Shown here one piece after another: positions 27,516 through 48,415 of a DNA stretch of 49,477 nt; positions within the stretch are counted from its first letter, which is position 1; each line of letters starts with the position of its first letter. The translations under genes were made by a program, and so were the position numbers. Source of the stretch: a virus (lineage: Duplodnaviria > Heunggongvirae > Uroviricota > Caudoviricetes); the IMG/VR virus record IMGVR_UViG_2703718798_000005; one strand, written 5' to 3'. The notes under the pieces were generated by a model. It worked only from the letters and a program-made list of their open reading frames with translations, was not told where the DNA came from and did no database searches.

Positions 27516-27523
27516 GGTAAGGC

Positions 27524-27903: not shown

Positions 27904-28380
27904 ATGACCACACGTAAGAAAAAAACGGCAGTTTCCGAGGCAGCCGTGATGGAGGCAATCCGGGAAGCACTTGAGGGGGCTGATCCACGCACTGCCGGGC
28001 TGACAGAGCAACTGGCAAAGGGATATGTGGATCTGCTTGATGGTCTGCCGTTTGGTGAGACCCGTGAATATCGTGTCACGTTCCGGGAACTGACAGCGAA
28101 AGACAGTATTGACGCAGAAGCAGAAGCCGAGCGCGTGGTGGAGACAAACAATGGCCCGATGCTGATAGCGTCTCCGTCGTTACGCGGTGTTGCACTGCTG
28201 CGCCGTCAGATTGCCGCAGTGGGAGACATTGAAGGTCCGTTGTCACCCCGTCAGATTGGACAGTTAAGCGAGCGCGATCTCTCCCGCCTGATGGCAGCGG
28301 TCAGCCTGCTGGATACCGCGCTTGCCGGAAAGCTGGCAGCTGACCGGGGGCGATCAGGCGCAGTGTCGGGATCAGATTGA
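27904..28380 (+). CDS. Tail assembly chaperone, putative (possible frameshift extension to 28504)
   Basis: Start moved to ATG 27904 (RBS AGGA); lies between tube and tape measure genes; the neighbouring frame is open from about 28292 to 28504. Confidence 0.5.
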   Translation: MTTRKKKTAVSEAAVMEAIREALEGADPRTAGLTEQLAKGYVDLLDGLPFGETREYRVTFRELTAKDSIDAEAEAERVVETNNGPMLIASPSLRGVALLRRQIAAVGDIEGPLSPRQIGQLSERDLSRLMAAVSLLDTALAGKLAADRGRSGAVSGSD

Positions 28381-28506
28381 AGAAGCGGCAATTATCCTGG
28401 GGATGGTGACAAAAAGCGGTCCGGAATGGGCGCTTAACCTCCCCCTGTCGCAACTTTACCGGCACTGCCGACAGACAGAAAAAATCATCAGAACGAAGCA
28501 GTAAGT

Positions 28507-30582: not shown

Positions 30583-31914
30583 CGGTCGTGGTGCGTTCCG
30601 TGGTGTGCCGTTCCTCGTCTGGCGTGAGCAGCGCGAACGTGGTGGGCGAAACATTGTCCGTCGGGAATATCCGTTACGGGAAACCGGTGGGGCAGACGAT
30701 CTGGGACCTAAACTGACTGAATTTACGTTCAGTGTACTTGTGATGGGGGATGATGTTCAGACACAGCGAAATCGTCTGCGTGATGCCCTTCGTGCTCCCG
30801 GTGCCGGGGAGCTGCTTCACCCGGATTACGGCACGTTAAATGTGCTGATAAACAGCTTTGAAAGTCGTTATAACGCCGCTGAACAGGGCGTGGTTGAGTT
30901 CACCATTAATGTCACGCCGGTAAGTGATGATACCGCACCTGCTGTCACACAGGACACGGCCGCCATTCTGGAGCAGAAGAGTACCACCGCGCTCGGGCAG
31001 GTTTTTGAAACCCTGGAAGCGGGCTGGACGGTGATCTCTGACGGAATGCACGATGTCCAGGCAATGACCGAAACCATCAGTGATAAGGTGTCCGCCCTGG
31101 AAAATGCCGTTTCCGGCATGGGGATTGTACAGGATATCAGTGCCTTTACTGCCACGTTCACGGCGCTGAAAGGGAATGCCACGGCATTACTGACAGCACC
31201 TTCCCGCATGGCCTCATCTTTTGCGGGGCTTTTCAGTGCCCTGATCACCCTGCCATCGCTGCCGTCACTGTCTTCAGGAGGCCTGAATACCCGGCCGGCA
31301 GTATCGGCCGGACGACATCCGCCGTCTCTCAGGGAATGCCGCAACTGTACAGGACATTATCTTCCCTGCGTTACGTGCTGGATGAGCAGGATAATCCGCA
31401 GACTCTCATCGGTCTGACACCGGCAGCACAAAAGAATATTCGTCTGATACGGGCGGTAATGCAGAGTGCTGCCGTGGTGGCCCAGGCACAGACCGTGGGA
31501 AAACTGCTGGATCAGGTTCTCAGTCAGGAAACCCTGCCGGACAGTGACGCAGCCCACCGTACCTGGCCTGTCTGGCTGGAAAGTTCAGTTGATCTTCAGC
31601 GCATTAACCGTGACTTAAGCGAAGCGCTCGAACGGCAGGTGATGACACTGTCCGGGCAGGGGTATACCGCCACGGCGCTGACGCTTCGTGATGCCAGACT
31701 GGCACTGACAGAGGATCTGAATACACGGGGAGTTCAGCTACCCGGTGCAACAGTAGTGACTGTACGTACCACCGAGCCTGCACTGGTGACCCTGTACCGT
31801 GCCACCGGGAACAGTACCGGCTGGCAACGTTTTGTGCGCCGTAACGGTATTGTTGATCCGCTGTTCATTCCCGGAGGCCATTCAGTGGAGGTGATTAGTG
31901 AGCAGCAGGGTTGA
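30569..31914 (+). pseudogene. DNA circularization protein (Mu N/gp43-like), apparently frameshifted
   Basis: N-terminal part in frame 2 (30569-31417), C-terminal part in frame 1 (open from about 31084, ATG at 31336, to 31914); the frame-2 tail is Cys-rich and implausible while frame 1 reads like protein. Confidence 0.55.
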
Positions 31915-33022
31915 ACTGTATCTGGGCGGTGAGATTTTTTCCGGCTGGCTGACGGTGAGTGTTCGTCGCTCTCTTGAACATCTGGCGGGCTCCTTTGAAC
32001 TGGGGGTAATGATGCCCGGTGTACGCCTTCCGTCATCCGTCCGTGCCGGTCAGTCTCTGGAATTGCGCATTGACGGTCAGCCTGTGATCACTGGCTGGCT
32101 GGATCAGGTCCGGCAGCGCATCAGCGCCACGCGTTTTCAGATCACGCTCAGCGGACGGGATAAAACCGGTGACCTGGTGGACTGTTCAGCCATTCATCCG
32201 GGCAGCCAGTGGAGGAACCGCACGCTGGAGCACATTGCTTCAGATTTGTGTGCTCCGTTCGGGGTCACGGTGCGCTGGCAGGTAAATGATGCAACGGCAG
32301 CCCGGCCCTTTTCCACCTTCACACTGGAAAATTCAGAAACCGTGGCAGATGCGCTGACACGGGCCGCGAGACACAGAGGCGTCCTGGTAACCAGTAATGC
32401 CGCCGGTGAACTGGTTTTCACTCAGGCCGGCAGTCAGCGTGGCGACACGCTGACGCTGGGCGAAAATCTGCTGGATTTGGATCACAACGTGGATCACCGT
32501 CTGCGCCACAGTGAATACCGTGTACGGGGGCACGGGCGTGGTGGTGGTCATGCCGGGGATGCACTGACAGCCGGAACGCTGGCCGCACCAGTTGGTACGG
32601 TGACAGACAGTGCCATCCACCGTTACAGACCGAAAATTGTGCTGGCGGATCATGCTGTTGATGCAGACGGTGCACGCCAGAGGGCTGTCCGGGAAATGCG
32701 CCGGGCGGTTGCCCGCTCTGTGCGCCTGACAGCCACCGTGCGGCACTGGTTTCGGGAGAACGGCCAGTTGTGGGATATCAACCTGCTGACGGCTGTCACG
32801 GCTCCCCGCACCGGAGTGGAAGAGCGTGATCTTCTTGTCTGTCAGGTGGAGTTTTCGCTGGATGCAAATCACGGCGAAACCACCCGTCTGATTCTGGCAC
32901 CCCGTGACGGCTTTATTGTTCCGGCAGAGCCGGGAAACAGCGGAAGCGGAAATGCGGGTGACGTGGACGCCTTCGTGCGGGCACAGATGAAAAAACAGGG
33001 GATTAAATTCAATGATGAATGA
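31898..33022 (+). CDS. Baseplate hub / late control D-like tail protein (Mu gp44-like)
   Basis: 374 aa; position after the tape measure and N genes. Confidence 0.7.
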   Translation: MSSRVELYLGGEIFSGWLTVSVRRSLEHLAGSFELGVMMPGVRLPSSVRAGQSLELRIDGQPVITGWLDQVRQRISATRFQITLSGRDKTGDLVDCSAIHPGSQWRNRTLEHIASDLCAPFGVTVRWQVNDATAARPFSTFTLENSETVADALTRAARHRGVLVTSNAAGELVFTQAGSQRGDTLTLGENLLDLDHNVDHRLRHSEYRVRGHGRGGGHAGDALTAGTLAAPVGTVTDSAIHRYRPKIVLADHAVDADGARQRAVREMRRAVARSVRLTATVRHWFRENGQLWDINLLTAVTAPRTGVEERDLLVCQVEFSLDANHGETTRLILAPRDGFIVPAEPGNSGSGNAGDVDAFVRAQMKKQGIKFNDE

Positions 33023-33626
33023 CGAAGTCATCAGCCGCCTTCTGGCCCCCGTGATGCGGGGTGTTCGTCTGCTGTTCGGGCGTGGTGTACTGACCGGCAC
33101 AACGGACACGCTGAAAATCCAGAATGTGCAAATCACCGGTATGGATGGTGAAACCTTTGATGACGTTGAACGCCCCCAGCAGTACGGGCAAATCAGCGTC
33201 CCCCTGCCTGGTGCGGAAGTTTTTCTGGCCTGTGCTGGCGGACAACGGGATCAGGCCGTGGTGCTTGTGGTGGAAGACCGCCGCAGTCGCCCGACCGGAC
33301 TTACCGCCGGAGATACCGGCGTGTATCACCATGAGGGGCACCGTATACGTCTGACAAAGAACGGCCGGATCATTGTGACCTGTAAGACACTGGAGATTTA
33401 CGCCGATGAAGGTGTTCAGGTGGATACACCGGAGGCTCACTTTACCGGTAATATCACAGTGGATAAGAACCTGCATGTCAAAGGCAATGTGTCCATTGAC
33501 GGCACCGGAAGATCACAGGGGGCGTTCACGATGTCCGAAGCGGTTATTGCCGGGATCACCTATTCAGGTCATGTGCATCACGATAACGGTGAAGGCAGCA
33601 AAACGGGAGGACCAGAGAATGGCTGA
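33012..33626 (+). CDS. Baseplate assembly/spike protein (Mu gp45-like)
   Basis: 204 aa; position. Confidence 0.7.
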   Translation: MMNDEVISRLLAPVMRGVRLLFGRGVLTGTTDTLKIQNVQITGMDGETFDDVERPQQYGQISVPLPGAEVFLACAGGQRDQAVVLVVEDRRSRPTGLTAGDTGVYHHEGHRIRLTKNGRIIVTCKTLEIYADEGVQVDTPEAHFTGNITVDKNLHVKGNVSIDGTGRSQGAFTMSEAVIAGITYSGHVHHDNGEGSKTGGPENG

Positions 33627-34056
33627 TATTGCTGTCGTCTGGGATCAGGGTTGTGGTTCCCTGCAACTGAACGGCGCAGATCTTCTGACGGATAACAGCC
33701 TGCTGACTGCGGTCATTATTTCACTGTTTACGGACAGGCGGGCGCTGGATTCCGATGAAATCCCTGACGGCACCCGTGACCGTCGGGGATGGTGGGGAGA
33801 CAGTTTCCGGGAGCGCCCCATTGGCTCCCGTCTCTGGCTGTTAAGCCGTGAAAAGACGCTGTCCTCCGTGGTCAGCCGTGCACAGGCCTATGCTGATGAA
33901 GCGCTGGCGTGGCTGCATAAAAGCGGTGCTGCCACATCCGTGGTATGTCATGCCATGCGTGTGGGGCATGATCGCCTTTCGCTTTCCGTGAAAATCACCC
34001 TGCCGGACGGAAGCAGACATCCGATGATTTTTTATGCTGATATGAAGGGGGAATGA
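33619..34056 (+). CDS. Baseplate protein (Mu gp46-like)
   Basis: Start moved to ATG 33619 overlapping the preceding stop; position. Confidence 0.65.
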   Translation: MADIAVVWDQGCGSLQLNGADLLTDNSLLTAVIISLFTDRRALDSDEIPDGTRDRRGWWGDSFRERPIGSRLWLLSREKTLSSVVSRAQAYADEALAWLHKSGAATSVVCHAMRVGHDRLSLSVKITLPDGSRHPMIFYADMKGE

Positions 34057-35138
34057 TGCCTTATCAGCCCTTACCACTGGCGCAACTGATCACACAGACA
34101 CAACAGGATATCAGCCAGCGCCTGCCCGGTTCGCAGCCGGGCGTGAATGAAACCACCCTGAATGCCATTGCGTATGCACTGGCGGGTCTGTCAGCACAGG
34201 AGCATGAACATCTGGCCTGGATCTCCCGGCAGATAATTCCGACAGAAGCTGATGAAGCCGAACTCCTGAAACACTGCGCATTCTGGGGTGTCATCCGTAA
34301 ACCGGCTTCCCGCGCTGACGGACCGGTACAACTGATGCTGACCACGGATGCAGGGATCACGGAAGGCGTACTCCTTCAGCGAAGCGATGGTGTTGTGTAC
34401 CGCATCACCGGCTCTGCGACCGGAAAAGCCGGAACACTGAATGTTAATGTGGAGGCGGAAAGTGCGGGGCGCGCCGGAAATACCCCGACCGGAACCCGCC
34501 TGTCCTTTATCACGCCACAGGCGGGCATCAACCAGACAGCCACGGTTACCGGCACGGGACTCACCGGTGGTGCGGATGTGGAAACGGTGCCGGAGTTGCT
34601 GTCCAGGCTGGTATTCCGGGTACAGAACCCGCCATCAGGGGGAACACAGTATGATTTTGAACGCTGGGCACGGGAAGTACCGGGCGTGACGCGGGCATGG
34701 TGTAAGCCTGAATGGCCTGAGGCGGGTAGTGTTGGTGTGACTTTTGTTCAGGATAATAACCCTGACATTTTCCCCGGAGAAGGTGATGTGAAGCGGGTGG
34801 CGGATTATATCCGCAGTCATGATGATCCGGCGACGGGCCAGCCCGTTGGTCAGCCACTTGGGCCGACAATCAGCGTGTTTAAGCTGACCAATAAGCCGGT
34901 GGCGTTTGAGATCAGGATTGTACCCAAAACGCCGGAAAATCAGGCTGCCGTAAAACAGGCATTAACGGACCTGCTTTATAACGAATCGCGGCCGGGTGGA
35001 CTTGTATTGCCTTCATCATTCTGGCGGGCTGTTGCAGGGGTGAAAGGACTGGAGGATTTTGAAGTTCGCAGTCCGCTGAAGTCCGTGATGGCCGGAGATA
35101 CAGAGTTGCTGACCGTGGGGGAAATCACATGGCTGTAA
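34053..35138 (+). CDS. Baseplate J-like protein (Mu gp47-like)
   Basis: 361 aa; position and size. Confidence 0.75.
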   Translation: MMPYQPLPLAQLITQTQQDISQRLPGSQPGVNETTLNAIAYALAGLSAQEHEHLAWISRQIIPTEADEAELLKHCAFWGVIRKPASRADGPVQLMLTTDAGITEGVLLQRSDGVVYRITGSATGKAGTLNVNVEAESAGRAGNTPTGTRLSFITPQAGINQTATVTGTGLTGGADVETVPELLSRLVFRVQNPPSGGTQYDFERWAREVPGVTRAWCKPEWPEAGSVGVTFVQDNNPDIFPGEGDVKRVADYIRSHDDPATGQPVGQPLGPTISVFKLTNKPVAFEIRIVPKTPENQAAVKQALTDLLYNESRPGGLVLPSSFWRAVAGVKGLEDFEVRSPLKSVMAGDTELLTVGEITWL

Positions 35139-35689
35139 CCCTGACCCCGCATCAGCGCGCCCTGTTGCAGTTGCTGCCTGACGGGCTGGCATGGGATAAG
35201 CGGCCGTCATCCGTTCTTGCGGCTTTGTGCCTGGGCCTCAGTCATTCCACGGAGCGTGTTTCCTGGACCGGTAACCAGATGCTGGCAGAACGTTTTCCTG
35301 ATTCATCCCGTCTGCTGCTGGAAGACTGGGAGCGTTATCTGGGGTTACCGGAATGTGATATGACCGGCGCAACCATTCAGGAACGTCAGCGTTATGCAGG
35401 GAATAAATACCGGATGAAACCCTCTCTTAACCGTGAATTTTATATCCGGTTTGCGGCAGAGTTTGGTTATGAAATAGATATTCAGCCATCACCGGATTCA
35501 CAGTGGGTCAGTATTGTCACGATAAACAGTGAAACCGGCTACCGGAATATGAATGTGCTGGATGATATTCTCACCCCGCTGCGTATTTATGAGGGTGGTG
35601 CGCTGGAATGTATTCTGAACCGTTATAAGCCTGCATGGCAGACGTTTATTTACGTGTATGCAAACAGTCACAAAGAGGAGAATATTTAA
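35129..35689 (+). CDS. Tail protein (Mu gp48-like, DUF2313-like)
   Basis: 186 aa; position before the tail fibre gene. Confidence 0.65.
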   Translation: MAVTLTPHQRALLQLLPDGLAWDKRPSSVLAALCLGLSHSTERVSWTGNQMLAERFPDSSRLLLEDWERYLGLPECDMTGATIQERQRYAGNKYRMKPSLNREFYIRFAAEFGYEIDIQPSPDSQWVSIVTINSETGYRNMNVLDDILTPLRIYEGGALECILNRYKPAWQTFIYVYANSHKEENI

Positions 35690-36600
35690 TGTTCCATGTT
35701 GATAATAATTCCGGCGTGGCGAATATGCCTGAACTGGCTCCGGCGCAGAGTAATACCACCACCTGGTTTACCGAAGGTGACGGACAAAAAGGTATCAGCT
35801 GGATTGGTCAGGACTGGCTGAATATTCTCCAGGCCGAACTGCTGAATATTCTGGCTGAAGCCAGTATTCAGCCGGATAAGGCGCAGTTAAACCAGCTTAC
35901 GCTGTCCATTAAAGCCATTATCGCTGCGAATGCCTTTTCCCGGAAAAACAACCTGAAAGAAATTGCTGATGCCGGTGCGGAAGCCCAGCGTCTGGCCCGT
36001 GGTTATCTTGGTCTGGGGACGCTTGCCACAAAAAACAGTCTTGGTCCCGCTGACGTTAATGCCCTGGCGAAGGATCAGAACCTTGCCGACCTGGAGAATG
36101 CGGAAACCGCCCGTAATAATCTGGATGTTTACAGCAGGAGCGAAGGTGATAACCGTTACCTGCGCAGGGACCAGAATGGCGCGGATATCCAGGACAAAGG
36201 AACCTTTATCGATAACCTCGGTTTACGGGAAACGGTAAATAAGGCTGCTGATGCCCTGCCATCGGCTGGAACCGCCGTGGCAGCAAACAGACTCGCCACC
36301 CCAAGAAATATTAATGGTGTTCCTTTTGACGGAACGCTGGATATCAACATCACGTCAGGAATGACGCAGTCAACCGCAGATGGCCGGTATGTACAGAATG
36401 TTCAGCTTGGAGCACAGAGCTATCATTCACCCGGAGGCAATGAAATGTCATGGAATTACAGCGCACCTTCCGGTTGTATGCTTTCCGGTATTAACGTGCA
36501 GGAAACCGGCTCCCGGTCTGCGGACAATATCGGTGGGGTCTATTATCGCCCGGTTCAGATTTATATTAATAATACCTGGAGAACGGTAAGTTCAGTGTAA
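35689..36600 (+). CDS. Tail fibre protein S (constant part plus currently fused variable tip)
   Basis: Start at ATG 35689 overlapping the preceding stop; crosses the left recombination site at about 36206-36231; last roughly 120 aa lie inside the invertible segment. Confidence 0.8.
   Translation: MFHVDNNSGVANMPELAPAQSNTTTWFTEGDGQKGISWIGQDWLNILQAELLNILAEASIQPDKAQLNQLTLSIKAIIAANAFSRKNNLKEIADAGAEAQRLARGYLGLGTLATKNSLGPADVNALAKDQNLADLENAETARNNLDVYSRSEGDNRYLRRDQNGADIQDKGTFIDNLGLRETVNKAADALPSAGTAVAANRLATPRNINGVPFDGTLDINITSGMTQSTADGRYVQNVQLGAQSYHSPGGNEMSWNYSAPSGCMLSGINVQETGSRSADNIGGVYYRPVQIYINNTWRTVSSV
36206..36231. repeat. Left recombination site (gix-like) inside the tail fibre gene
   Basis: TTATCGATAACCTCGGTTTACGGGAA, close to the Mu gix sequence as recalled. 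Confidence 0.7.
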
Positions 36601-36634
36601 ACCACAGAAAAGGGTGCTGAATGCACCCTCTGAA

Positions 36635-37156
36635 TTATTCCGGTTTTTCCGGCCAGGGAATCGCCTGGTAATGCCCCTCACTGGCAATATCATTAAAGTG
36701 CATTTCTTTAAGCTGTCGGATATACGCCATCCAGCGCGTCAGCTGTAATTTATTTTCATCGCTAATCATGTCCAGTTTTAATTCTGTTTTCCAGTCATCC
36801 ACGGTTTCGTTGGCTTCCTGGAGCAGCGATGAGCGACGCTTTTCAGCAACCGTCTTCCAGTTTACCGGCACCTTTGATATCAGGCCATCAGAAAACTGCC
36901 AGTTACCGTCAATATTCACACCTTCCGGCAGTTCGTCCACTTCAACAACAGTAAAACCTGCCGGATATAAAGCAGAGACATCTTCAGCAACAGAGCAGAT
37001 AATACCCGTTACAGGCGAAATACAGAGTTTGTATTTCTTTGTAAAAAGCGGGATAGATTCATAAAAATCCCTTCCGTCCTCACTCTGGAAATACTGAACA
37101 TCCTCACCATAGGGTTTGTCTTTCGGGTAATATCGTTTGACATTAATCAGTTGCAT
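36635..37156 (-). CDS. Tail fibre assembly protein (Tfa/U-like)
   Basis: Start moved to internal Met (MQLINVKRYY); C-terminal ...QAIPWPEKPE typical of Tfa chaperones; inside the invertible segment. Confidence 0.75.
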   Translation of the reverse strand: MQLINVKRYYPKDKPYGEDVQYFQSEDGRDFYESIPLFTKKYKLCISPVTGIICSVAEDVSALYPAGFTVVEVDELPEGVNIDGNWQFSDGLISKVPVNWKTVAEKRRSSLLQEANETVDDWKTELKLDMISDENKLQLTRWMAYIRQLKEMHFNDIASEGHYQAIPWPEKPE

Positions 37157-37277
37157 AAACATCACCATGTAAATCAATGATAAAAACAGGAATAATACTA
37201 TCGCCATATACAGGCAATGCTTGTCTGAAATAACGCATATTTCAGATGCTGGCTGCTGTGTGCTATGCCCCCGTTAA

Positions 37278-37649
37278 TTAAATACTTGCAGCGGATACCC
37301 AATGCCCATTAATACAATATTGTATCTGTCTGTAATAAACACGGTCATCACCACCACGCATTTCCCAGTCTCCGTCAGTCTTAAAACCGGTAATCACATT
37401 TCCTGATGACAGGGAGTAATTATATTCCAGTCCGCCGCTTAATGCCTGCGCTCCCAGTCTTACCCCTGTAACATAACGCTGATTGGCCGTTGATTCCGGC
37501 ATTCCTGACGTAATGTTTATATCCTGCGTGCCGTCAAAGGCGACACCATTGATTCTGCGGGCATTTGCCAGCCTGCTTGCTGCAACAGCCGTACCGTTTG
37601 ATGGCAGGGCATTCGCGGCCCTGTTTACCGTATCCCGTAAACCGAGGTT
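37278..37649 (-). CDS. Alternative tail-fibre C-terminal segment (promoterless until inversion)
   Basis: Minus-strand frame reads NLGLRDTVNRAANALPSNGTAVAASRLA..., parallel to NLGLRETVNKAADALPSAGTAVAANRLA... of the expressed tip; a stop lies immediately outside the right recombination site. Confidence 0.7.
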   Translation of the reverse strand, partial: NLGLRDTVNRAANALPSNGTAVAASRLANARRINGVAFDGTQDINITSGMPESTANQRYVTGVRLGAQALSGGLEYNYSLSSGNVITGFKTDGDWEMRGGDDRVYYRQIQYCINGHWVSAASI

Positions 37650-37657
37650 TCAGGGAT
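37632..37657. repeat. Right recombination site (gix-like), inverted
   Basis: ATCCCGTAAACCGAGGTTTCAGGGAT, inverted relative to the left site. Confidence 0.7.
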
Positions 37658-37711
37658 GCCGTATATCTACTTTAAAAGGCTTTTCCACCTCTTTTTAAGG
37701 AAGGTAAATAC

Positions 37712-38272
37712 ATGCTGATTGGCTATATACGCGTATCAACAAATGACCAGAACACCGGTTTACAAAGAAATGCGCTGGAATGTGCAGGATGTGAGCAGAT
37801 TTTTGAAGACAAAATGAGTGGTAAAACGACACAGCGGCCGGGACTGAAGCGGGCACTGAAGAAACTAAAACCCGGTGACACGCTGATGGTCTGGAAACTG
37901 GACAGGCTGGGGCGCAGTATGCGCCACCTTGTTGCGCTGACAGATGAATTACAGCAACAGGGGATAAATTTTCGTAGTCTTACTGACAACATTGATACGT
38001 CAACCCCCATGGGGCGCTTCTTTTTTCACATAATGGGTGCGCTGGCAGAAATGGAGCGTGAATTAATTGTCGAACGGACACGGGCTGGTCTTGCAGCTGC
38101 CCGTGAAAGGGGACGAACCGGCGGCAGACCCCGCCGTCTCACGCAGGAACAATACGAGCAGGTCGGGCGTTTACTGGCCGGGGGTGTCAGTCGAAGACAG
38201 GTGGCACTTATTTTTGATATCGGTCTTTCAACCCTTTATCGTTATTATCCTGCGAGCGTTTCGGAAAAATAA
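37712..38272 (+). CDS. gin: Serine DNA invertase (Gin/Hin/Cin family)
   Basis: 186 aa; N-terminal MLIGYIRVSTNDQN catalytic-Ser motif; C-terminal HTH; adjacent to the invertible segment. Confidence 0.9.
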   Translation: MLIGYIRVSTNDQNTGLQRNALECAGCEQIFEDKMSGKTTQRPGLKRALKKLKPGDTLMVWKLDRLGRSMRHLVALTDELQQQGINFRSLTDNIDTSTPMGRFFFHIMGALAEMERELIVERTRAGLAAARERGRTGGRPRRLTQEQYEQVGRLLAGGVSRRQVALIFDIGLSTLYRYYPASVSEK

Positions 38273-38371
38273 GACGCTCTCTTTGTTGGGCCTTTACTGA
38301 ATTAACGCAAAATGGCGTTTATCGGTCTGTGGATATGATAATTCAGTTTATTCAGGAACAGGCTGATTATT

Positions 38372-40411
38372 ATGACGTCCAAATGGGTTCAACTATCATC
38401 AATGCCCGGAAACTTTACTGTTAAAGTTTCCGGTGGTACAGCGGCATTTCTTGAGGCTCCCTTTCCTCCGGCCGAAACAAAAGGAGGAATGACATTTGCT
38501 GACTGTCTCATCAGTTTTAATACACGGGATTGCCTGTGGGTAAGGCCAGTATCCGGTGATCCGAGTGTGGAAATTACCGGAGCGGGTATTGGTGCGGTCA
38601 TTCCGTTAAGTGCTGATGTTGCCGGTACTGCTGAACCGTCAGACTGGGATAATGCTGAAACACATACCCGTCCGTCAGGAAATGAAACTGCTTCCAGCTC
38701 CCCTTCCTGGTATTACGTGGTGGTTCTTGCTGGTCAGTCAAACGGTATGGCTTACGGTGAAGGTCTGCCACTGCCGGAGACATATGACCGCCCCGAACCG
38801 CGTATTATGCAGTTAGCCCGTCGCAGTACAGTCACGCCGGGAGGTAAAGCCTGTCAGTATAACGACATCATTCTGGCCGACCACTGTCTGCATGATGTGC
38901 AGGATATGAGTGGAAAAAATCACCCGAAAGCGGATGTGGCTAAAGGGCAATATGGCACCGTGGGTCAGGGGCTTCACATTGCCAAAAAACTGCTGCCGTT
39001 TATTCCGGCAGATGCGGGGATTCTGCTGGTTCCCTGCTGCCGTGGTGGTTCTGCATTCACGGCGGGTGCTGACGGCACGTACAGTGACAGCACGGGTGCT
39101 TCAGAGGACTCAGCCCGCTGGGGTGTGGATAAGCCGCTGTATAAGGACTTAATCAGCCGGACAAAAGCGGCACTGGCGAAGAACCCGAAAAACCGCCTGC
39201 TTGCTGTGGTGTGGATGCAGGGCGAGTTTGATATTGATGCGAAGCCGACGGAGCATTCTGCGCTGTTTCTGGCGATGGTGGAAAAATTCCGCGCAGACCT
39301 GGCTGAACAGGCGGAACAGTGTACCGGTGGCAGTGCTGCTGGCGTTCCGTGGATTTGTGGCGATACCACGTATTTCTGGAAACAGAAAAATGAACCAGCA
39401 TACCAGGCAATCTATGGCGGCTACAAAAACAAAACAGATAAAAACATTCATTTCGTTCCATTAATGACAGATGAAAATGGCGTGAATGTACCCACCAACA
39501 ATCCGGCAGAAGACCCGGATATTGAATCCATTGGTTATTACGGCTCAACGTGGCGTAACAGTGCCGCTACCTGGACATCTGCGGACCGGGCCAGCCATTT
39601 CAGTGCCTGGGCGCGCCGGGGTATTATTTCTGACCGTCTGGCCACGGCTGTTCTGACTCATGCAGGGCGAACCACAGTAAAAGCCGATGTTCCATCTTCT
39701 GAAACTGAAGCACCAGTGCCGTCACCTTCAGAAACTGAAGCAGTAACCACAACACTGCTGTCTTACCGTGTCAGTGAGTCAGAAGGAAATCTGAAAGCCC
39801 AGGGCTGGGAGCCGGCTGGCGGTAAAGCTGAAATTATCAGTGATGCAGGAGGCACAGGTGGTAAGGCAATGAAACTGACCAAGGAAACAGGTAAATCATC
39901 CTGGTATCTGGATCATGATGCCGGTACTGGTGCTGAACTGCTGAAAAATGGTGGTTTAATCAGTTGTCGTTTTAAAGTACCTGGCGACCTGGTGGCAAAC
40001 CAGTATGTCATGGCGCTTTACTGGCCGGTTTCCTCTCTGCCGCAGGGTGTCACCCTGACAGGGGATGCAGGGAATAATCTGCTGGCATCGTTCTACATCC
40101 AGACAGACGCAAAAGACCTGAATGTGATGTACCACAATGCAAAAGTGGCAACAAATAACCAGAAACTGGGAACCTTTGGTGCATTTGATAATGAATGGCA
40201 TACGCTGGCCTTCCGTTTTGCAGGAAATAACAGCCTTCAGGTTATTCCGGTTATTGATGGTCAGGATGGTGCCGCGTTTACCCTGACGCAGTCACCAGTA
40301 GGAACTTTCCCGGTGGACAAACTCCGCGTAACGGATATCACCAAAAATGCAACTTACCCGGTGCTGATTGACAGCATTGTGGTGGAAGTGAAAAAAGCGG
40401 TAACAGAATAA
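38372..40411 (+). CDS. Cargo protein: SASA/SGNH-type esterase domain (sialate O-acetylesterase-like, NanS-p-like) with a lectin-like C-terminal domain
   Basis: 679 aa; YYVVVLAGQSNGMAYGEG block resembles the GQSN motif of DUF303/SASA esterases; C-terminal 200 aa may be a ConA-like beta-sandwich; no counterpart at this position in Mu. Confidence 0.55.
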   Translation: MTSKWVQLSSMPGNFTVKVSGGTAAFLEAPFPPAETKGGMTFADCLISFNTRDCLWVRPVSGDPSVEITGAGIGAVIPLSADVAGTAEPSDWDNAETHTRPSGNETASSSPSWYYVVVLAGQSNGMAYGEGLPLPETYDRPEPRIMQLARRSTVTPGGKACQYNDIILADHCLHDVQDMSGKNHPKADVAKGQYGTVGQGLHIAKKLLPFIPADAGILLVPCCRGGSAFTAGADGTYSDSTGASEDSARWGVDKPLYKDLISRTKAALAKNPKNRLLAVVWMQGEFDIDAKPTEHSALFLAMVEKFRADLAEQAEQCTGGSAAGVPWICGDTTYFWKQKNEPAYQAIYGGYKNKTDKNIHFVPLMTDENGVNVPTNNPAEDPDIESIGYYGSTWRNSAATWTSADRASHFSAWARRGIISDRLATAVLTHAGRTTVKADVPSSETEAPVPSPSETEAVTTTLLSYRVSESEGNLKAQGWEPAGGKAEIISDAGGTGGKAMKLTKETGKSSWYLDHDAGTGAELLKNGGLISCRFKVPGDLVANQYVMALYWPVSSLPQGVTLTGDAGNNLLASFYIQTDAKDLNVMYHNAKVATNNQKLGTFGAFDNEWHTLAFRFAGNNSLQVIPVIDGQDGAAFTLTQSPVGTFPVDKLRVTDITKNATYPVLIDSIVVEVKKAVTE

Positions 40412-40447
40412 AAAAATCCCGCCGGTCATGATATGGCTGGCGGGAGC
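40412..40447. terminator. Hairpin flanked by an A-tract (terminator-like, better oriented for the minus strand)
   Basis: AAAAAAA-TCCCGCC...GGCGGGA; on the minus strand the hairpin is followed by TTTTTTT. Confidence 0.4.
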
Positions 40448-40557
40448 TACCTAACCCATAAAGGAAAATAAAAATACTCCCGAAGGAGTGGTTATCAGTC
40501 GCTTCGATGTTTTTACCCGATAACGAATTATGTAGTCAATATCAAAGGTAAGGTTAT

Positions 40558-40740
40558 ATGACATTCGTTCATACAATGCTGCTTTATTTCTGCGCTGTGG
40601 TCAGTGCGTTATATCTGGTGAGCGGCGGTTATAAGGTCATCAGAAATTATATTCGCCGTAAAATTGATGATGCGGCAGCTGAAAAACTCAGTAAAACAGC
40701 ACAGGCACCGTCATCCCCAAACGACCCGACCCCGCTCTGA
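40558..40740 (+). CDS. Small predicted membrane protein (cargo region)
   Basis: 60 aa; N-terminal TM helix LLYFCAVVSALYLVSGG. Confidence 0.35.
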   Translation: MTFVHTMLLYFCAVVSALYLVSGGYKVIRNYIRRKIDDAAAEKLSKTAQAPSSPNDPTPL

Positions 40741-40775
40741 TAACGGGGCAATATACCTGCAAAAGGAGAATATTC

Positions 40776-41021
40776 ATGCCAGAGATTAAAGGCACGGTTA
40801 CTGAAGAGCTTGTCAAACAGGCACTTTATTCTGAAGAAGTGAACCGCGTGCTGAAGGCGCAGGTTCGCAAGGATTTTGAGGCACAAATCGACGCATATGT
40901 TGATGAAGTGCTGGCCCGAATGGTTGGCCGTTCTCCGGCTGAAAACAGCACGGAAAATGATCCTCAACCCGTAGAGCAACCAGAGCCGGTTCAGCCCGGA
41001 ACTGACGGTACTATGATGTAA
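40776..41021 (+). CDS. Small acidic hypothetical protein (cargo region)
   Basis: 81 aa ORF with RBS AAAGGAGAA. Confidence 0.4.
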   Translation: MPEIKGTVTEELVKQALYSEEVNRVLKAQVRKDFEAQIDAYVDEVLARMVGRSPAENSTENDPQPVEQPEPVQPGTDGTMM

Positions 41022-41569
41022 CAATACCGACCGGCAGGTTTCCCTGCCGGGTGAGTTTGTTAATGCACGTTTTGTGTATTTTCCCTCCTGGGAGAACAGG
41101 CAGGACATATCAGCATCCTGAAACAGGAAGCATTTTTGGGTTTGTATGTCTTGCCATTTTGAGATCGAGAACGGCGATAGATGAGCTGTAAGGGAGTCTT
41201 ACAGGCAGGGCAAACAGGCTCTTTCATCCATGATAAAGATCTCCTTTTTATGCATCTCTGCTTTACAGGAGACTGGGGAATATCATAGGATACGCCACGA
41301 GCTCGAAGTAAAGCATTGATGCAAAATTGTCTAAATCGGCCCAGAATAGTTCGCGCTATCTGGGTCGCTCTTTATGTATGTAGTATCCCATTGATTTGAA
41401 ACATACTACATATACGCGCGATCCTACCTTCACTATATAAAAAGTCAATAAAATGATCATTTTATGATCGTTTTCACCACCTAACTCTTCGTTTTCTTTA
41501 AGTAAATAATCACCTACCTGAATCATTGTTGATGACTTTTCAATCTATTTGTTGTATCAATTAAACAAA

Positions 41570-41640
41570 TCGAATCGATCGTTTTTGTCGATCGATTGCA
41601 TGAGAAAGGCATCAACAACAAAGCAGGAGGTTATGCGGCC
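41570..41640 (+). promoter_or_regulatory. com-mom promoter-proximal region with paired GATC sites
   Basis: GATC at about 41577 and 41590 within ATCGAATCGATCGTTTTTGTCGATCGATTG; RBS AGGAGG before com. Confidence 0.4.
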
Positions 41641-41841
41641 ATGTATCGAAACATACGGTGCCGACACTGCAATAAGCTACTGGCACGGGCCAGTTTCAGT
41701 TATCTGGAAGTAAAATGTCCGCGCTGTAAAACCCTCAATCAAATCACATCTCCGAGCGCCACAGAGCACCCCACATACACAAGGAAATCCTGTCGTGGGG
41801 AACAGAAAGCAAGTCACATCCCGAATCATCAGCACGCCTGA
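41641..41841 (+). CDS. com: Com-like zinc-finger translational activator of mom
   Basis: Start moved to ATG 41641; [14 protein letters not shown]...[11 protein letters not shown] four-Cys pattern like Mu Com; overlaps the mom start. Confidence 0.75.
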
Positions 41842-42532
41842 ACTTATTCGCTATAACGACAATATCGTTGGTTATGGCTCCCGTGAGTTGCGGGTTGAGA
41901 CAATAAGTTGCTGGCTGGCCAGACTGGTCATCGTCAATAAACATTACAGCCACCGTTTCGTAAATAACTCCTACCTTCATCTGGGCATATTTTCAGAACG
42001 GGAACTTGTTGGCGTAATGCAATGGGGTTACGCCCTTAACCCAAACAGTGGTGCACGCGTCGTAACGGGTACGCAGAACCGAGAATATATGGAGCTTAAC
42101 CGGCTATGGCTGCATGACTGTATGCCGAGAAACTCCGAATCAAGGGCAATCAGTTACGCGCTCAAGCTAATCAGGCAGCTTTATCCGCAGGTACAGTGGG
42201 TTCAGTCGTTTGCAGATGAGCGTTGTGGCTGTCTTGGTGTCGTGTATCAGGCAAGCAATTTTGATTATGTAGGCAGCCATGAATCAATATTCTATGAACT
42301 TGATGGCGAGTGGTATCACGAGATTTGCAGGAATGCCATTAAACGAGGCGGACAACGAGGTGAACATCTGAGGGCTAATATTGACAGAGCCAATGTTCAT
42401 AAGTTCCGACAGTTTCGTTACATCCGGTTTCTGAACAAGAGGGCCAAAAAACGCCTCAACACAAAGCTATTCAAAGTCCAGCCTTACCCAAAACCACAAA
42501 CAGTTAAAACTGGTTTGAAAGAGAGTGAATGA
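41795..42532 (+). CDS. mom: Mom-like DNA modification protein
   Basis: 245 aa; last gene at the right end and overlapped by com, as in Mu; start codon uncertain. Confidence 0.75.
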
Positions 42533-42584
42533 GCGCTTAAAAACTCATTCTAAAACTCAAAAGAAAAGCGCCGATTTAGTATCA

Positions 42585-42659
42585 AATAAGTTGCGTATCG
42601 GCGTTTTTCAGCAGTATCAAATGAAATGCAAATCGGTATCAAAAAAATCGCCGCGCTAT
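42585..42659. repeat. Prophage right end (attR-like) with three inverted TTTGATAC repeats
   Basis: AGTATCAAA at about 42588, AGTATCAAA at about 42613, GGTATCAAA at about 42636. Confidence 0.5.
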
Positions 42660-42660
42660 A

Positions 42661-45441
42661 TGGGATGAATACCATCACCTGCTGGCCCGCCACTCCCCTG
42701 CCGGGCGGGTGGAGAAATTTGAATACAACGCCGCACATGGTCAGTTAAGCTGTTATACGGCGGCAGACGGCGCGGAGTGGCAGTACTGCTATGATGAGCG
42801 CGGCCTGCTCAGCAACATCACCGACCCTGCCGGGCAGACGTGGACGCAGCAGTGTGATGAACGCGGCCTGCCGGTGAGTCTGGTGTCGCCACAGGGCGAA
42901 GAGACCCGGCTGGCATACACCGCACAGGGGCTGCTGTCGGGAATATTCCGCCAGGATGAACGGCACCTGGGCATAGAGTACGACCACCACAACCGGCCGG
43001 AAACACTCACCGACGTGATGGGCCGTGAACACCACACCGAATACAGTGGTCACGACCTGCCGGTGAAGATGCGCGGCCCCGGCGGTTAGTCAGTGCGGTT
43101 GCAGTGGCAGCAGCACCATAAACTGAGCGGCCTTGAGCGGGCAGGAACCGGCGCAGAAGGATTCCGCTATGACCGCCACGGCAACCTGCTGGCGTACACG
43201 GACGGTAACGGCGTTGTCTGGACAATGGAATACGGCCCGTTTGATTTGCCGGTGGCGCGAACGGACGGTGAAGGCCACCGCTGGCAGTACCGCTACGATA
43301 AAGACACGCTGCAACTGACAGAAGTCATTAACCCGCAGGGCGAGTCTTATCTTTATATTCTGGACAACTGTGGCCGGGTGACGGAAGAACGTGACTGGGG
43401 CGGCGTGGTCTGTCGTTACCGCTATGACGCCGATGGCCTGTGTACCGCCAGGGTTAACGGCCTGGAGGAAACTATCCTCTACAGCCGGGACGCCGCAGGC
43501 CGCCTGGCAGAAATCATCACGCCGGAAGGCAAAACGCAGTATGCGTATGACAAATCCGGCAGGCTGACGGGTATCTTCAGCCCGGACGGCACATCACAGC
43601 GCACCGGCTATGATGAACGCGGGCGGGTGAATGTCACCACTCAGGGCCGACGGGCCATTGAATACCACTACCCCGACGAACACACCGTCATCCGCTGTAT
43701 CCTGCCACCGGAAGATGAACGCGACAGACACCCCGATGAATCCCTGCTGAAAACCACGTACCGTTATAACGCCGCCGGAGAACTGACGGAGGTCATTCTG
43801 CCGGGGGATGAGACGCTGACGTTCAGCCGTGATGAGGCGGGACGTGAAGTGCTCCGGCACAGTAACCGGGGTTTTGCCTGTGAGCAGGGCTGGAATGCAG
43901 CCAGCCAGCTTGTCACCCAGCGCGCCGGATTTTTCCCGGAGGAAACCACATGGGGCGGGCTGCTCCCCTCACTGGTACGGGAGTACCGTTACGACAGCGC
44001 GGGCAATGTGTCGGCTGTCACCAGCCGGGAAGATTACGGACGGGAAACACGGCGGGAGTACCGGCTGGACCGGAACGGTCAGGTCACGGCGGTGACAGCC
44101 TCAGGCACCGGGCTGGGCTATGGCGAAGGCGATGAGTCCTATGGCTATGACAGTTGTGGCTACCTGAAGGCGCAGTCTGCGGGCAGGCACCGGATAAGTG
44201 AAGAGACTGACCAGTATGCCGGAGGCCACCGGCTGAAACAGGCCGGAAACACGCAGTATGACTATGACGCCGCAGGCCGGATGGTCAGCCGCACAAAACA
44301 CCGTGACGGCTACCGCCCGGAAACAGAGCGGTTCCGGTGGGACAGCCGGGACCAGCTGACCGGGTATTGCAGCGCACAGGGTGAACAGTGGGAATACCGC
44401 CACGACGCCAGCGGCAGACGAACAGAGAAACGCTGTGACAGGAAGAAAATCCGCTTCACGTACCTGTGGGATGGCGACAGTATTGCGGAAATCCGGGAAT
44501 ACCGCGATGATGAACTGTACAGCGTACGGCACCTGGTGTTTAACGGCTTTGAGCTGATAAGCCAGCAGTGCAGCCGGGTACGGCAGCCGCACCCGTCCGT
44601 GGCCCCGCAGTGGGTGACGCGAACGAATCATGCGGTGAGCGACCTGACGGGCCGCCCGCTGATGCTCTTTAACAGTGAAGGTAAAACCGTCTGGCGGCCG
44701 GGGCAGACCAGCCTGTGGGGGCTGGCACTCAGCCTGCCCGCAGACACCGGCTACCCGGACCCGCGCGGGGAGCGGGACCCGGAAGCGGACCCCGGCCTGC
44801 TGTATGCGGGACAGTGGCAGGATGCAGAATCGGGGCTGTGCTATAACCGGTTCCGGTACTACGAGCCGGAAACCGGGATGTACCTGGTGAGTGATCCGCT
44901 GGGGTTGCAGGGAGGGGAGCAGACTTACCGGTATGTGCCGAATCCTTGTGGGTATATCGATCCTTTGGGGCTGGCTATATGTCAGTTAGCCCGCTGGACG
45001 AAATGGGGGAGTGAGCAAAGCAACATATCTGATGTTTTGAACTCATTAGGGAATAGAGCACTTAAATATGCTAATGGTGATTGGATAAAATCAGAGGCTG
45101 CATTCAATAAATACATAAACATGATAAATAAAAGACTAGAATTAACAGGTAGTAAATTTAGAGTTGAGATTCAACCAGCCATAAAAAATGGAGAGCGAGT
45201 TCCTGCGACAACGAATGGACCATTTAAAGTAAATGGTAAGTGGACATCCGGCACTCATTATACAGGTGGTTCCAAACGTCTAGATGCCGGTATTATTGAT
45301 ATCACATCTCCTACAAACCAATATGGATTACATCCAGTTATTGAAGGATTTGATATAACACTTAATAAAACAAAACCATCAGCAGTGGATATATATTCAG
45401 ATGTGTTTGGTGGGATTGATATTAACGACATTCGGTTATAA
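42661..45441 (+). pseudogene. rhs: rhs effector, 3' portion (Rhs repeat core and C-terminal toxin tip), with in-frame TAG at 43087-43089
   Basis: Frame continues the 5' fragment; ORF track splits it into 42709-43089 and 43093-45441 around a TAG; DPLGL-type demarcation (YIDPLGLA) at about 44960; low-GC C-terminal tip of about 150 aa. Confidence 0.8.
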
Positions 45442-45458
45442 AACAATAAGGCGGCAAT

Positions 45459-45866
45459 ATGAAAGAGATTGATTTATTATATGAAAATATTTATCAGCTT
45501 TTAATTAAACCTTACCTACTCGATCTTTCTAGCCAGTCTGGAAAAAAAATAGAAGTAAATTACACATGCAAAATAAAAGATGCTGCTGATGAAATAAAGG
45601 GTAGTATGATTTTTAATGATGTAGATGGTAAACAAAAAGCAACTTGCACTATCAGGGTGTTAATACTAAAAACATTTCACGATGGTCGTTATAGATTTGT
45701 AATTGAATCTGTGATTTATGATTTAATTAATAATTACAGTGGATTTATTTTAACGGGGAGATTGTTTTGGCAAGGGGAAGGTTTTGGCCATGAATTATTC
45801 CCCGTGACAAACAAATATAATGCTTGGAGATGGAAAAATAAAAAAATAATAGATATTTCTTGGTAA
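45459..45866 (+). CDS. Putative Rhs immunity protein (cognate to the main toxin tip)
   Basis: 135 aa AT-rich ORF 17 nt downstream of the rhs stop. Confidence 0.6.
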   Translation: MKEIDLLYENIYQLLIKPYLLDLSSQSGKKIEVNYTCKIKDAADEIKGSMIFNDVDGKQKATCTIRVLILKTFHDGRYRFVIESVIYDLINNYSGFILTGRLFWQGEGFGHELFPVTNKYNAWRWKNKKIIDISW

Positions 45867-47307: not shown

Positions 47308-47673
47308 ATGTCAAGATATATACTTATTAGAGGTTGGTTTGAGTGCGACTTTGAACAAGTAAAAAAAATAAAAGAAGCTAATGAAGAATTTTTCAAACAT
47401 TCTGAAAAATATTTATTACCAGAAAACACGAAACGACTTTATTTAAATGGGTGGTGTTACCCAGAATATCCTATCAACTGGGTTAGCGTTATTTCCTTAG
47501 GTGTTAATATAAATCAAATTGCATTTGATTATATAAAAGACATGATTGTAAATGTTTCAAGAACTGAAAGATTGGATGGTTATTTTCGTGTGAATGATGA
47601 TGAAGATAATTTATTCTTAGAATGGATTGTAAAAGATGGTTATTTAGAGGAAATAATTTTGTCTGGTTCATAA
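47308..47673 (+). CDS. Putative immunity protein for the orphan toxin tip
   Basis: 121 aa ORF beginning at the ATG overlapping the toxin stop; AT-rich. Confidence 0.55.
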   Translation: MSRYILIRGWFECDFEQVKKIKEANEEFFKHSEKYLLPENTKRLYLNGWCYPEYPINWVSVISLGVNINQIAFDYIKDMIVNVSRTERLDGYFRVNDDEDNLFLEWIVKDGYLEEIILSGS

Positions 47674-47947: not shown

Positions 47948-48415
47948 TTGGCGCTGTTGTTACAAGCGGGTGATTATATGTGTGAATTAATTAATGAAGC
48001 ATCAAAATATGGGAAAGTCAATGTAAGAAAGATGGACATTGATTTGTGTTGTAAAAAAATAGAGGAAGAAGGGTATTCTGTTTTCGTTGCGTTCTATGAT
48101 TTTATAAAAAAATATGGCGGTTTATATGGCTTTCATTCAGCTTACAAAGACACCACTATAAGTGAGGCTTTTTTTATAGATCCAGAAAGGGCCTCTAATC
48201 GCATTTTTATAGAAAGAGTCAATGATTATATTGAGAGAGCTGGTTACAATATGATTCCTGTTGGCGAGTGCAGTAATGGTCATATCACATTATTATATGG
48301 GGAAAATAATGTGATATATGGCGGCTTGGATGATTATCTTTGGAAGTATGGGGATAATTTATCTTCATCAATTGATATATTGATTAATGGCAAGGAGGCA
48401 GTTGAAATTCCGTAA
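47948..48415 (+). CDS. Hypothetical protein, possible stand-alone immunity gene
   Basis: 155 aa AT-rich ORF after an rhs remnant, with no intact toxin tip upstream. Confidence 0.35.
   Translation: MALLLQAGDYMCELINEASKYGKVNVRKMDIDLCCKKIEEEGYSVFVAFYDFIKKYGGLYGFHSAYKDTTISEAFFIDPERASNRIFIERVNDYIERAGYNMIPVGECSNGHITLLYGENNVIYGGLDDYLWKYGDNLSSSIDILINGKEAVEIP

What the first reader, a model, noticed from the sequence alone, without database searches (positions are those of the whole stretch)
44958..45866. Rhs C-terminal toxin tip and immunity gene of unrecognised type
After the DPLGL-type demarcation (YIDPLGLA, about 44960) the last roughly 150 aa switch to AT-rich sequence with no motif I can assign, followed 17 nt later by a 135 aa AT-rich ORF in the canonical immunity position. 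The compositional break is the usual signature of a horizontally exchanged Rhs toxin/immunity cassette, and the toxin activity is unknown.
Basis: partly seen in the sequence, partly recalled or inferred. Interest (0 to 1): 0.5.

Follow-up and report, generated by a model that had tools for sequence, protein, structure and literature searches.

The report
Known E. coli RhsF toxin–immunity cassette
This is the already published RhsF toxin tip and RhsFI immunity gene of E. coli, a predicted nuclease-like weapon module with its antidote, sitting here on an Rhs gene that a Mu-like prophage has broken, so it is real but not new.

Summary
The PxxxxDPxGL motif ends at 44973. A 155-aa AT-rich tip (44974-45438) follows, then a 17-nt gap, then a 135-aa ORF (45459-45866). 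GC falls from about 0.62 to 0.30-0.36.

The cassette is not unrecognised. It is rhsF-CT/rhsFI of the E. coli cusS–nfrB vgrG/eagR/PAAR-Rhs island (EHEC ECs0605/ECs0604), studied in NAR 2025 (PMC7618764). That work found a BpuSI-like nuclease fold, no toxicity of the Sakai 'RhsFint' fragment, and sRNA binding by RhsFI.

New here:
- The tip belongs to a family found at the C-terminus of Rhs and PT-HINT toxins in several phyla. E41, R102, D127 and K134 are almost invariant, and T/S129 is family-wide.
- A homologous immunity ORF follows the toxin in 7 of 7 distant genomes.
- The window allele keeps consensus I153. The tested Sakai/O157:H7 allele has F153, which no family member has.

In this genome delivery is disabled. 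A 39.5-kb Mu-like prophage (5-bp duplication) splits rhsF, and an in-frame stop lies at 43087-43089.

Verdict: already known, modest interest.

The parts
1..558 (+). 3' end of vgrG (T6SS spike)
   Evidence: Gp5_trimer_C, E 1.2e-22. Collinear with the VgrG gene of the intact locus L001.
586..1047 (+). eagR-type chaperone gene (DcrB/DUF1795)
   Evidence: PF08786 DcrB, E 1.4e-27. Annotated 'DcrB-related protein' in L001/L002. Called EagR (z0706) in PMC7216683.
1067..3167 (+). 5' fragment of rhsF (prePAAR, PAAR, DUF6531, first Rhs repeats), cut off by the prophage
   Evidence: Pfam hits. Window 1-3167 matches L001 3549-6715. The ORF runs into a stop just inside the prophage.
3168..42659 (+). Mu-like transposable prophage inserted in rhsF, flanked by a 5-bp duplication ATGGG (3163-3167 and 42660-42664)
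   Evidence: blastn against the intact locus. Junction sequences. Mu transposase A, MuB, Mom and a resolvase-type invertase. The same phage end lies at many different sites in other genomes, and none of 5,426 genomes has this junction.
42660..44973 (+). 3' fragment of the rhsF core up to the PxxxxDPxGL autocleavage motif (44944-44973), with an in-frame stop at 43087-43089
   Evidence: RHS_repeat, E 9.4e-47. Window GG*SV against GGQSV in L001. Motif read from the sequence.
44974..45441 (+). RhsF-CT toxin tip, 155 aa plus stop. Predicted restriction-endonuclease-like fold. Candidate active-site residues are E41, R102, D104, D127 and K134. The window has allele I153.
   Evidence: PMC7618764.
45459..45866 (+). 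rhsFI, the cognate immunity gene (135 aa). One residue differs from ECs0604 of Sakai (V33 here, L33 there).
   Evidence: PMC7618764.
45879..47306 (+). Orphan rhs core fragment with a different tip (Tox-REase-3)
   Evidence: Core homology restarts at 45879. PF15647, E 7.9e-36. Annotated as a partial 'restriction endonuclease fold toxin' in L001.
47308..47673 (+). Presumed immunity gene of the orphan Tox-REase-3 tip
   Evidence: Its position; the 366-nt CDS at the same place in L001. No family hit.
47948..48415 (+). Orphan SUKH-3 immunity gene
   Evidence: PF14433, E 1.4e-12. Annotated as SUKH-3 in L001.

Best explanation
Region 44974-45866 is the RhsF-CT/RhsFI effector-immunity cassette of the E. 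coli vgrG-eagR-PAAR-Rhs island between cusS and nfrB. In an intact locus, the chaperone loads the PAAR-Rhs protein onto VgrG. The Rhs cocoon encloses the 155-aa tip, which is cut off after DPLGL, and the type VI secretion system fires it into a neighbouring cell. The tip most likely acts as a metal-dependent phosphodiesterase (nuclease) of the PD-(D/E)xK restriction-endonuclease-like fold. Its acidic ligands would be D104 (start of strand 2) and D127 (strand 3), helped by E41 on the preceding helix. The invariant K134 would probably replace the canonical lysine, whose position is T/S129 throughout the family. Whether the substrate is DNA or RNA is unknown. The 135-aa protein encoded 17 nt downstream binds the tip and protects the producer and its kin. 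In this particular genome the weapon cannot be delivered, because a Mu-like prophage splits rhsF and a nonsense codon lies downstream of the insertion. What can remain is rhsFI, which gives immunity against relatives with an intact rhsF. A tip fragment may also be made from the internal promoter reported for strain Sakai. Shown: anatomy, gene disruption, family membership, co-conservation of the two genes, the fold prediction. Inferred: nuclease chemistry, the role of K134, neutralisation by binding, residual expression.
Confidence: 0.75

Rival explanations
1. Repurposed regulator. In E. coli the tip is no longer a toxin. A sub-genic transcript makes RhsFint and RhsFI, and the heterodimer binds small RNAs and mRNA 3' UTRs and tunes sRNA stability, adhesion and acid resistance. 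The immunity role would be ancestral only. This can coexist with the best explanation.
For: PMC7618764 reports RhsFI crosslinking to sRNAs in vivo and RNA binding in vitro. It also reports an internal transcription start in the 3' part of rhsF, a non-toxic RhsFint, and a 30-fold adhesion defect of the double deletion. The window retains the whole 3' part of rhsF and rhsFI despite the prophage, so such a transcript would survive the disruption.
Against: All experiments used the O157:H7 Sakai allele with F153. The family has I, V or L at this position in 52/52 sequences, and the residue lies between invariant D152 and R154. The window has I153. The putative catalytic residues are fully retained in E. 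coli. RhsFI homologues are tightly linked to toxin homologues in distant phyla, as expected for immunity rather than for sRNA regulation. The reported affinity of RhsFI for RNA is an order of magnitude below that of Hfq or ProQ.
Confidence: 0.35
2. The tip is a toxin, but not a nuclease. The restriction-endonuclease-like resemblance would be a shared scaffold only, and the conserved R102, K134, Y141, D152 and R154 would serve another chemistry or a binding function.
Against: Every hit aligning more than 80 residues is a PD-(D/E)xK protein. The best sub-threshold Foldseek hits are also endonucleases: PfoI, DUF820, and a phage 'Endonuclease'. The invariant acidic residues fall at the positions expected for the fold, and PMC7618764 superposes them on the BpuSI/FokI metal site.
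Confidence: 0.15
3. The cassette is inert debris in this genome: a dead 3' remnant of a disrupted rhs gene with no remaining function for either ORF.
For: A prophage insertion plus a nonsense codon lie upstream. No promoter-like site was found on the + strand.
Against: Both ORFs are intact. They are 100% identical over 931 nt to four genomes, two of which (DSM 103246 and ABW_A19) share the orphan arrangement seen here, and DSM 103246 was checked and has an intact locus. An internal promoter drives this part of the locus in Sakai. Immunity genes remain useful without their toxin. The insertion looks recent: no other complete genome has it.
Confidence: 0.1

Closest known systems
RhsF (ECs0605/z0705) C-terminal domain 'RhsFint' and RhsFI (ECs0604/z0704) of EHEC O157:H7 (PMC7216683; PMC7618764)
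   Different: The window has I153 and V33 where Sakai has F153 and L33. The I153 allele is in 68 of 366 carrier genomes and the F153 allele in 298, mostly O157:H7. Here rhsF is split by a Mu-like prophage and carries a stop codon. The orphan downstream is Tox-REase-3 rather than the metallopeptidase RhsG of EDL933/Sakai.
PD-(D/E)xK restriction-endonuclease-fold toxin domains of polymorphic toxins (Tox-REase-1 to -10, Zhang et al. 2012, PMC3482391)
   Same: A C-terminal module of Rhs and PT-HINT toxins with an adjacent immunity gene. The predicted core has the same strand and helix order. There is an acidic residue on helix 1 and acidic residues on strands 2 and 3.
   Different: No member matches any Pfam Tox-REase model, or any Pfam model at all. 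According to PMC3482391, all ten clades keep a classical D-[EQ]xK site. This family has D-I-[TS] with an invariant lysine five residues further on. The immunity family matches no Pfam Imm model.
BpuSI / FokI-type nuclease domains and DUF820 (Uma2)-type putative nucleases (3s1s, 3ot2, 1wdj, 3ijm, 9y1l)
   Different: Sequence identity is 9-13%. There is no sequence-level relationship. The tip has three extra N-terminal helices and a beta-hairpin insertion at residues 69-96. These proteins are not toxins.

Membership tests
Rhs polymorphic toxin C-terminal module (Rhs-CT) | Lies directly after the PxxxxDPxGL autocleavage motif that ends a conserved Rhs core | tested here: met
   PCGYIDPLGL lies at 44944-44973. 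RHS_repeat E 9.4e-47 upstream. Homology to the orphan core copy stops at 44975.
Rhs polymorphic toxin C-terminal module (Rhs-CT) | The tip is variable and horizontally exchanged: different tips on the same core, with a compositional break | tested here: met
   GC drops from 0.62 to 0.30-0.36. The orphan core 45879-47306 carries Tox-REase-3 instead. The same tip family occurs on unrelated Rhs and PT-HINT proteins in other phyla.
Rhs polymorphic toxin C-terminal module (Rhs-CT) | A small cognate immunity gene lies immediately downstream | tested here: met
   A 135-aa ORF follows 17 nt after the stop. A homologous ORF lies next to the toxin stop, from a few nt before it to 9 nt after, in 7/7 distant loci.
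Rhs polymorphic toxin C-terminal module (Rhs-CT) | The tip is toxic when expressed and is neutralised by the downstream protein | not testable with these tools
   Published for the Sakai F153 allele only: RhsFint was not toxic in DH5alpha, and a heterodimer with RhsFI is predicted by AlphaFold-multimer (PMC7618764).
T6SS PAAR-Rhs effector with Eag chaperone | vgrG, a DUF1795/Eag chaperone gene and a prePAAR-PAAR-Rhs gene in one operon-like row | tested here: met
   Pfam hits for all three. The order is the same in intact loci.
T6SS PAAR-Rhs effector with Eag chaperone | A continuous reading frame from PAAR to the tip, so that the tip can be loaded and delivered | tested here: not met
   A 39.5-kb Mu-like prophage lies between 3167 and 42660, and there is a stop at 43087-43089. 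The frame is continuous in other genomes, for example L001 (1,625 aa) and Sakai (1,616 aa).
PD-(D/E)xK nuclease superfamily | An alpha-beta-beta-beta-alpha-beta core fold | tested here: met
PD-(D/E)xK nuclease superfamily | An acidic residue at the start of strand 2, and an acidic residue on strand 3 | tested here: met
   D104 (55 D + 4 E of 60) precedes strand 105-109. D127 (58/58) lies within strand 122-129. PMC7618764 aligns both with the BpuSI/FokI metal ligands.
PD-(D/E)xK nuclease superfamily | A lysine two residues after the strand-3 acidic residue, (D/E)xK | tested here: not met
   Position 129 is T (41) or S (16) across the family and never K. An invariant K134 (56/57) lies five residues further on and may substitute, which is an inference.
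PD-(D/E)xK nuclease superfamily | Metal-dependent phosphodiester cleavage | not testable with these tools
   No assay has been published, and PMC7618764 leaves the activity open.
Pfam Tox-REase families and other curated toxin and immunity models | A significant match to the family HMM | tested here: not met
   No Pfam hit for any of 29 tip-family members or 8 immunity-family members. NCBIfam, PADLOC and PHROGs also give nothing.

The most novel reading that the evidence does not exclude
The published 'non-toxic, repurposed' behaviour of RhsFint may be specific to the O157:H7 lineage and caused by the I153F substitution. This places a bulky residue between invariant D152 and R154, at a position where 52/52 family members have I, V or L. 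The ancestral I153 allele, carried by this window and by 68 of 366 carrier genomes, would then encode an active nuclease toxin. It would define a new clade of restriction-endonuclease-fold polymorphic toxins, with a migrated lysine (D-I-[TS]...K) and its own immunity family, spread from Proteobacteria to Planctomycetota and Acidobacteriota.
Probability: 0.2. Interest if true: 0.45.

Novelty: already known. Interest (0 to 1): 0.3.

Why it matters
The cassette itself adds nothing new. It is a published effector-immunity pair of a well-known system, and in this genome it is disabled for delivery. Three points go beyond the literature I could read.

- The tip is a member of a phylum-spanning toxin family that no curated HMM library covers. 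That explains why it is annotated only as 'RHS repeat-associated core domain-containing protein' plus 'hypothetical protein'.
- The missing catalytic lysine that puzzled the authors of PMC7618764 is a family-wide feature paired with an invariant K134. This argues against decay of the active site in E. coli.
- The only allele tested for toxicity carries a substitution never seen in the family, whereas this window carries the consensus residue. That gives a cheap, direct experiment that could revise the 'repurposed immunity protein' story.

Tried and rejected
- Sequence searches of the tip and the ORF against Pfam, NCBIfam, PADLOC, PHROGs and PDB sequences gave only chance-level hits, such as Chibby, HypD and designed helical repeats.
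- The word-indexed protein search returned almost nothing: one Xenorhabdus Rhs fragment for the tip and only E. coli for the ORF, even when given the profile. The exhaustive HMMER search was what revealed the family.
- Foldseek against the PDB and BFVD found no significant match. The afdb50 library was not available.
- The structure of the immunity protein could not be obtained. The single-sequence model has pLDDT 47.7 and was not used for fold search. Only its helix-then-beta-sheet order agrees with the published description.
- The search for related loci with the 29-sequence alignment failed for lack of a conserved stretch and worked with 8 closer sequences.
- The contig of the Xenorhabdus homologue is not on record.
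- The simple promoter scan found nothing on the + strand near the tip, so I could not locate the published internal promoter in the sequence.
- I considered and rejected that the two ORFs are chance ORFs in AT-rich DNA (homologues). I also rejected that the tip is a phage or defence-system gene brought by the adjacent prophage. The prophage ends at 42659, and the cassette is collinear with prophage-free loci.

Full report
**1. The observation**

The + strand ORF 43093..45441 ends ...RYVPNPCGYIDPLGLAICQLARW.... Counting on the sequence, the PxxxxDPxGL motif is PCGYIDPLGL at 44944-44973. The tip is 44974-45438 (155 aa), and the stop is TAA at 45439-45441. The next ORF begins with ATG at 45459, 17 nt later, preceded by AAGG at 45448-45451. 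It ends at 45866 and encodes 135 aa.

GC content is 0.59-0.67 in the Rhs core and 0.30-0.41 over the tip and the ORF. It rises again to 0.53-0.63 where the next Rhs core fragment starts. The alignment between this core and the downstream orphan core copy stops at 44975, two bases past the motif. The description is accurate.

**2. Where this is**

The 931 bases around the finding occur in 366 of 5,426 complete E. coli genomes, once each. In 320 of them identity is 99% or more and coverage is at least 80%. In intact loci the order is cusS, vgrG, a DcrB-related (DUF1795/Eag) gene, a 1,625-aa PAAR/Rhs gene, a 135-aa 'hypothetical protein', orphan rhs fragments with other tips, ISEc1 and nfrB. In strain Sakai these are ECs0607, ECs0606, ECs0605 and ECs0604.

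The window starts inside vgrG. Pfam confirms the Gp5 C-terminal domain (1-555), DcrB (586-1044), and prePAAR, PAAR, DUF6531 and Rhs repeats (1067-3169).

**3. The gene is broken here**

Window 1-3167 matches the intact locus L001 at 3549-6715, and window 42660-49477 matches L001 6711-13528. So 39.5 kb (3168-42659) are inserted in the Rhs core, with a 5-bp duplication ATGGG.

The insert encodes Mu transposase A, MuB, a resolvase-type invertase and Mom. Its left end is found at many unrelated sites in other genomes. No complete genome has this junction. This is the behaviour of a Mu-like transposable phage.

Downstream of the insertion, the codon for Q in GGQSV of L001 is a stop at 43087-43089. 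The 'ORF 43093..45441' is therefore the tail of a doubly disrupted rhsF, and it cannot be delivered as a PAAR-Rhs effector in this strain.

**4. What the tip is**

Curated libraries give nothing for the tip or the ORF: Pfam, NCBIfam, PADLOC, PHROGs and PDB sequences. The exhaustive HMMER search of 1.84 billion representatives finds 54 proteins at E<=1e-3 and 32 at E<=1e-10. In nearly all of them the match lies at the very C-terminus, including proteins of up to 5,666 aa; the exceptions are a few weak repeat-type or fragment hits.

The long members carry Rhs repeats. Others carry a pretoxin HINT domain just upstream. None of 29 aligned members hits any Pfam model. So this is a genuine polymorphic-toxin domain family that has no curated model.

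In the alignment of 63 sequences, these residues are essentially invariant (tip numbering, residue 1 = A at 44974):
- E41 (56/58)
- R102 (60/60)
- D127 (58/58)
- I128
- K134 (56/57)
- Y141, F145, D152 and R154

D104 is D in 55 sequences and E in 4. Position 129 is T in 41 and S in 16.

**5. Fold**

With the 29-sequence alignment, AlphaFold2 gives pLDDT 94.8 and pTM 0.87. The model has three helices (2-12, 15-32, 37-58) and strand 62-66. A beta insertion follows (strands 69-71, 74-76, 79-86 and 89-96). Then come strands 105-109 and 122-129, helix 138-144 and strand 149-154. Leaving the insertion aside, this is the alpha-beta-beta-beta-alpha-beta order of the PD-(D/E)xK core. E41 sits on the first core helix, D104 at the start of strand 2 and D127 on strand 3.

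Foldseek finds nothing significant. Its best sub-threshold hits are again endonucleases. The fold assignment is therefore reasonable but not strong.

The classical lysine of (D/E)xK is absent. Because T/S129 is family-wide and K134 is invariant, I infer that the lysine has moved rather than been lost. Such relocations are known in this superfamily, which I state from general knowledge and did not test here.

**6. The downstream ORF**

Its only database relatives are E. coli proteins. However, a scan of one genome per species with the tip profile returned eight loci, seven of them full-length matches. They come from two Sphingomonas genomes, three Planctomycetota, a Vicinamibacteria genome and a Lysobacterales genome.

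In all seven, a 119-140-aa ORF lies next to the toxin stop, from a few nt before it to 9 nt after. These ORFs share the motifs GRYxF, TGFSGF and YNxWDW with the E. coli ORF. A profile built from those seven alone scores the E. coli ORF at 51.8 bits (E 2.6e-15). It hits nothing else among 630 six-frame segments of the window.

Such tight co-inheritance with the toxin across phyla is what a cognate immunity protein shows. One divergent toxin (35% identity) is followed by an unrelated ORF, as often happens when toxin clades switch immunity partners.

I could not model the immunity protein.

**7. What is already published**

PMC7618764 (Zammit et al., NAR 2025) studied it in strain Sakai:
- RhsFI (ECs0604) was recovered as an RNA-associated protein and crosslinks to sRNAs and 3' UTRs.
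- An internal promoter in the 3' part of rhsF transcribes a fragment (RhsFint) together with rhsFI, independently of the repressed T6SS.
- AlphaFold-multimer predicted an RhsFint-RhsFI dimer.
- RhsFint was expressed but not toxic in DH5alpha.

My fold result reproduces theirs independently. The main text of that paper mentions no non-E. coli homologues, K134 or position 153. Its supplement was not available.

**8. A difference that may matter**

The window's tip differs from Sakai's at one residue: I153 here, F153 in Sakai (ATT versus TTT). The immunity protein also differs at one residue: V33 here, L33 in Sakai. Of the 366 carrier genomes, 298 have the Sakai codon, mostly O157:H7, and 68 have the window's codon.

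In the family, position 153 is I (43), V (8) or L (1) and never F. It lies between invariant D152 and R154 on the last core strand. The only toxicity test on record therefore used an atypical allele, and a construct that starts upstream of the cleavage motif. The negative result lowers confidence in toxicity for O157:H7, but it does not settle the question for the allele in this window.

**9. Mechanism and rivals**

The most likely account has three parts. The ancestral and general role is a T6SS-delivered nuclease-type toxin neutralised by a tightly bound immunity protein. In this genome delivery is lost and rhsFI remains as protection. A tip fragment may still be made from the internal promoter.

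The published RNA-regulator role is a compatible second function, and I give it about 0.35 as the main present-day function in E. coli. A non-nuclease chemistry gets about 0.15. Complete inertness of the region gets about 0.1.

**10. Verdict**

It is the published RhsF-CT/RhsFI pair, so novelty is 'already known' and interest is modest. The family-level conservation, the co-conserved immunity family and the I153/F153 polymorphism are the useful additions.

Noticed in passing
window 3168-42659 (duplications at 3163-3167 and 42660-42664): A 39.5-kb Mu-like transposable prophage is inserted in the rhsF core with a 5-bp ATGGG target duplication. It carries a repressor-like ORF (3440-3994, minus strand), MuA (4404-6491), MuB (6567-7499), a Gin-type invertase (37712-38272), a Com-like ORF (41596-41841) and Mom (41795-42532). 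None of 5,426 complete E. coli genomes has this junction. The same phage end sits in many unrelated genes elsewhere.
   Followed up: partly
window 43087-43089: There is an in-frame nonsense codon in the rhsF core, where the intact locus of strain DSM 103246 has Gln (GGQSV becomes GG*SV). This is a second inactivating lesion, downstream of the prophage.
   Followed up: yes
window 45430-45432 (tip residue 153): The window has ATT (Ile), whereas Sakai, EDL933 and 296 other genomes have TTT (Phe). Sixty-eight genomes share the window's codon. The toxin family never has Phe here, and the published toxicity test used the Phe allele.
   Followed up: yes
window 45879-48698 and 48958 onward: Downstream there is a typical orphan array. 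It holds an rhs core fragment with a Tox-REase-3 tip (to 47306) and a 121-aa presumed immunity ORF (47308-47673). A SUKH-3 immunity gene (47948-48415) and a short Rhs fragment (48459-48698) follow. Last comes the start of ISEc1, as in strain DSM 103246. EDL933 and Sakai instead have a metallopeptidase orphan (RhsG).
   Followed up: partly
window 38372-40411: A 679-aa ORF lies just after the invertase gene of the prophage, in the position of an invertible tail-fibre segment. I did not analyse it.
   Followed up: no
E. coli genomes H22-H28 and the 46 lower-identity records: In several non-O157 genomes, only a 'hypothetical protein' and no Rhs gene is annotated under the tip end and the start of rhsFI. 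In addition, 46 of 366 records match the 931-nt query at 95-99% identity or with less than 80% coverage. These may be orphan or displaced copies of the cassette.
   Followed up: no
L012 1346-2438 (JGI metagenome contig): A divergent member of the tip family (35% identity, RLDLA...SGFDIS type) is followed by a 135-aa ORF unrelated to RhsFI. This suggests a second immunity family for that clade.
   Followed up: partly
window 44878-44880: There is an in-frame ATG (M of ETGMYLVSDPLGL) 32 codons before the tip. It is a possible start for the published RhsFint product. The simple scan found no sigma-70-like promoter on the + strand in 44300-46100.
   Followed up: partly
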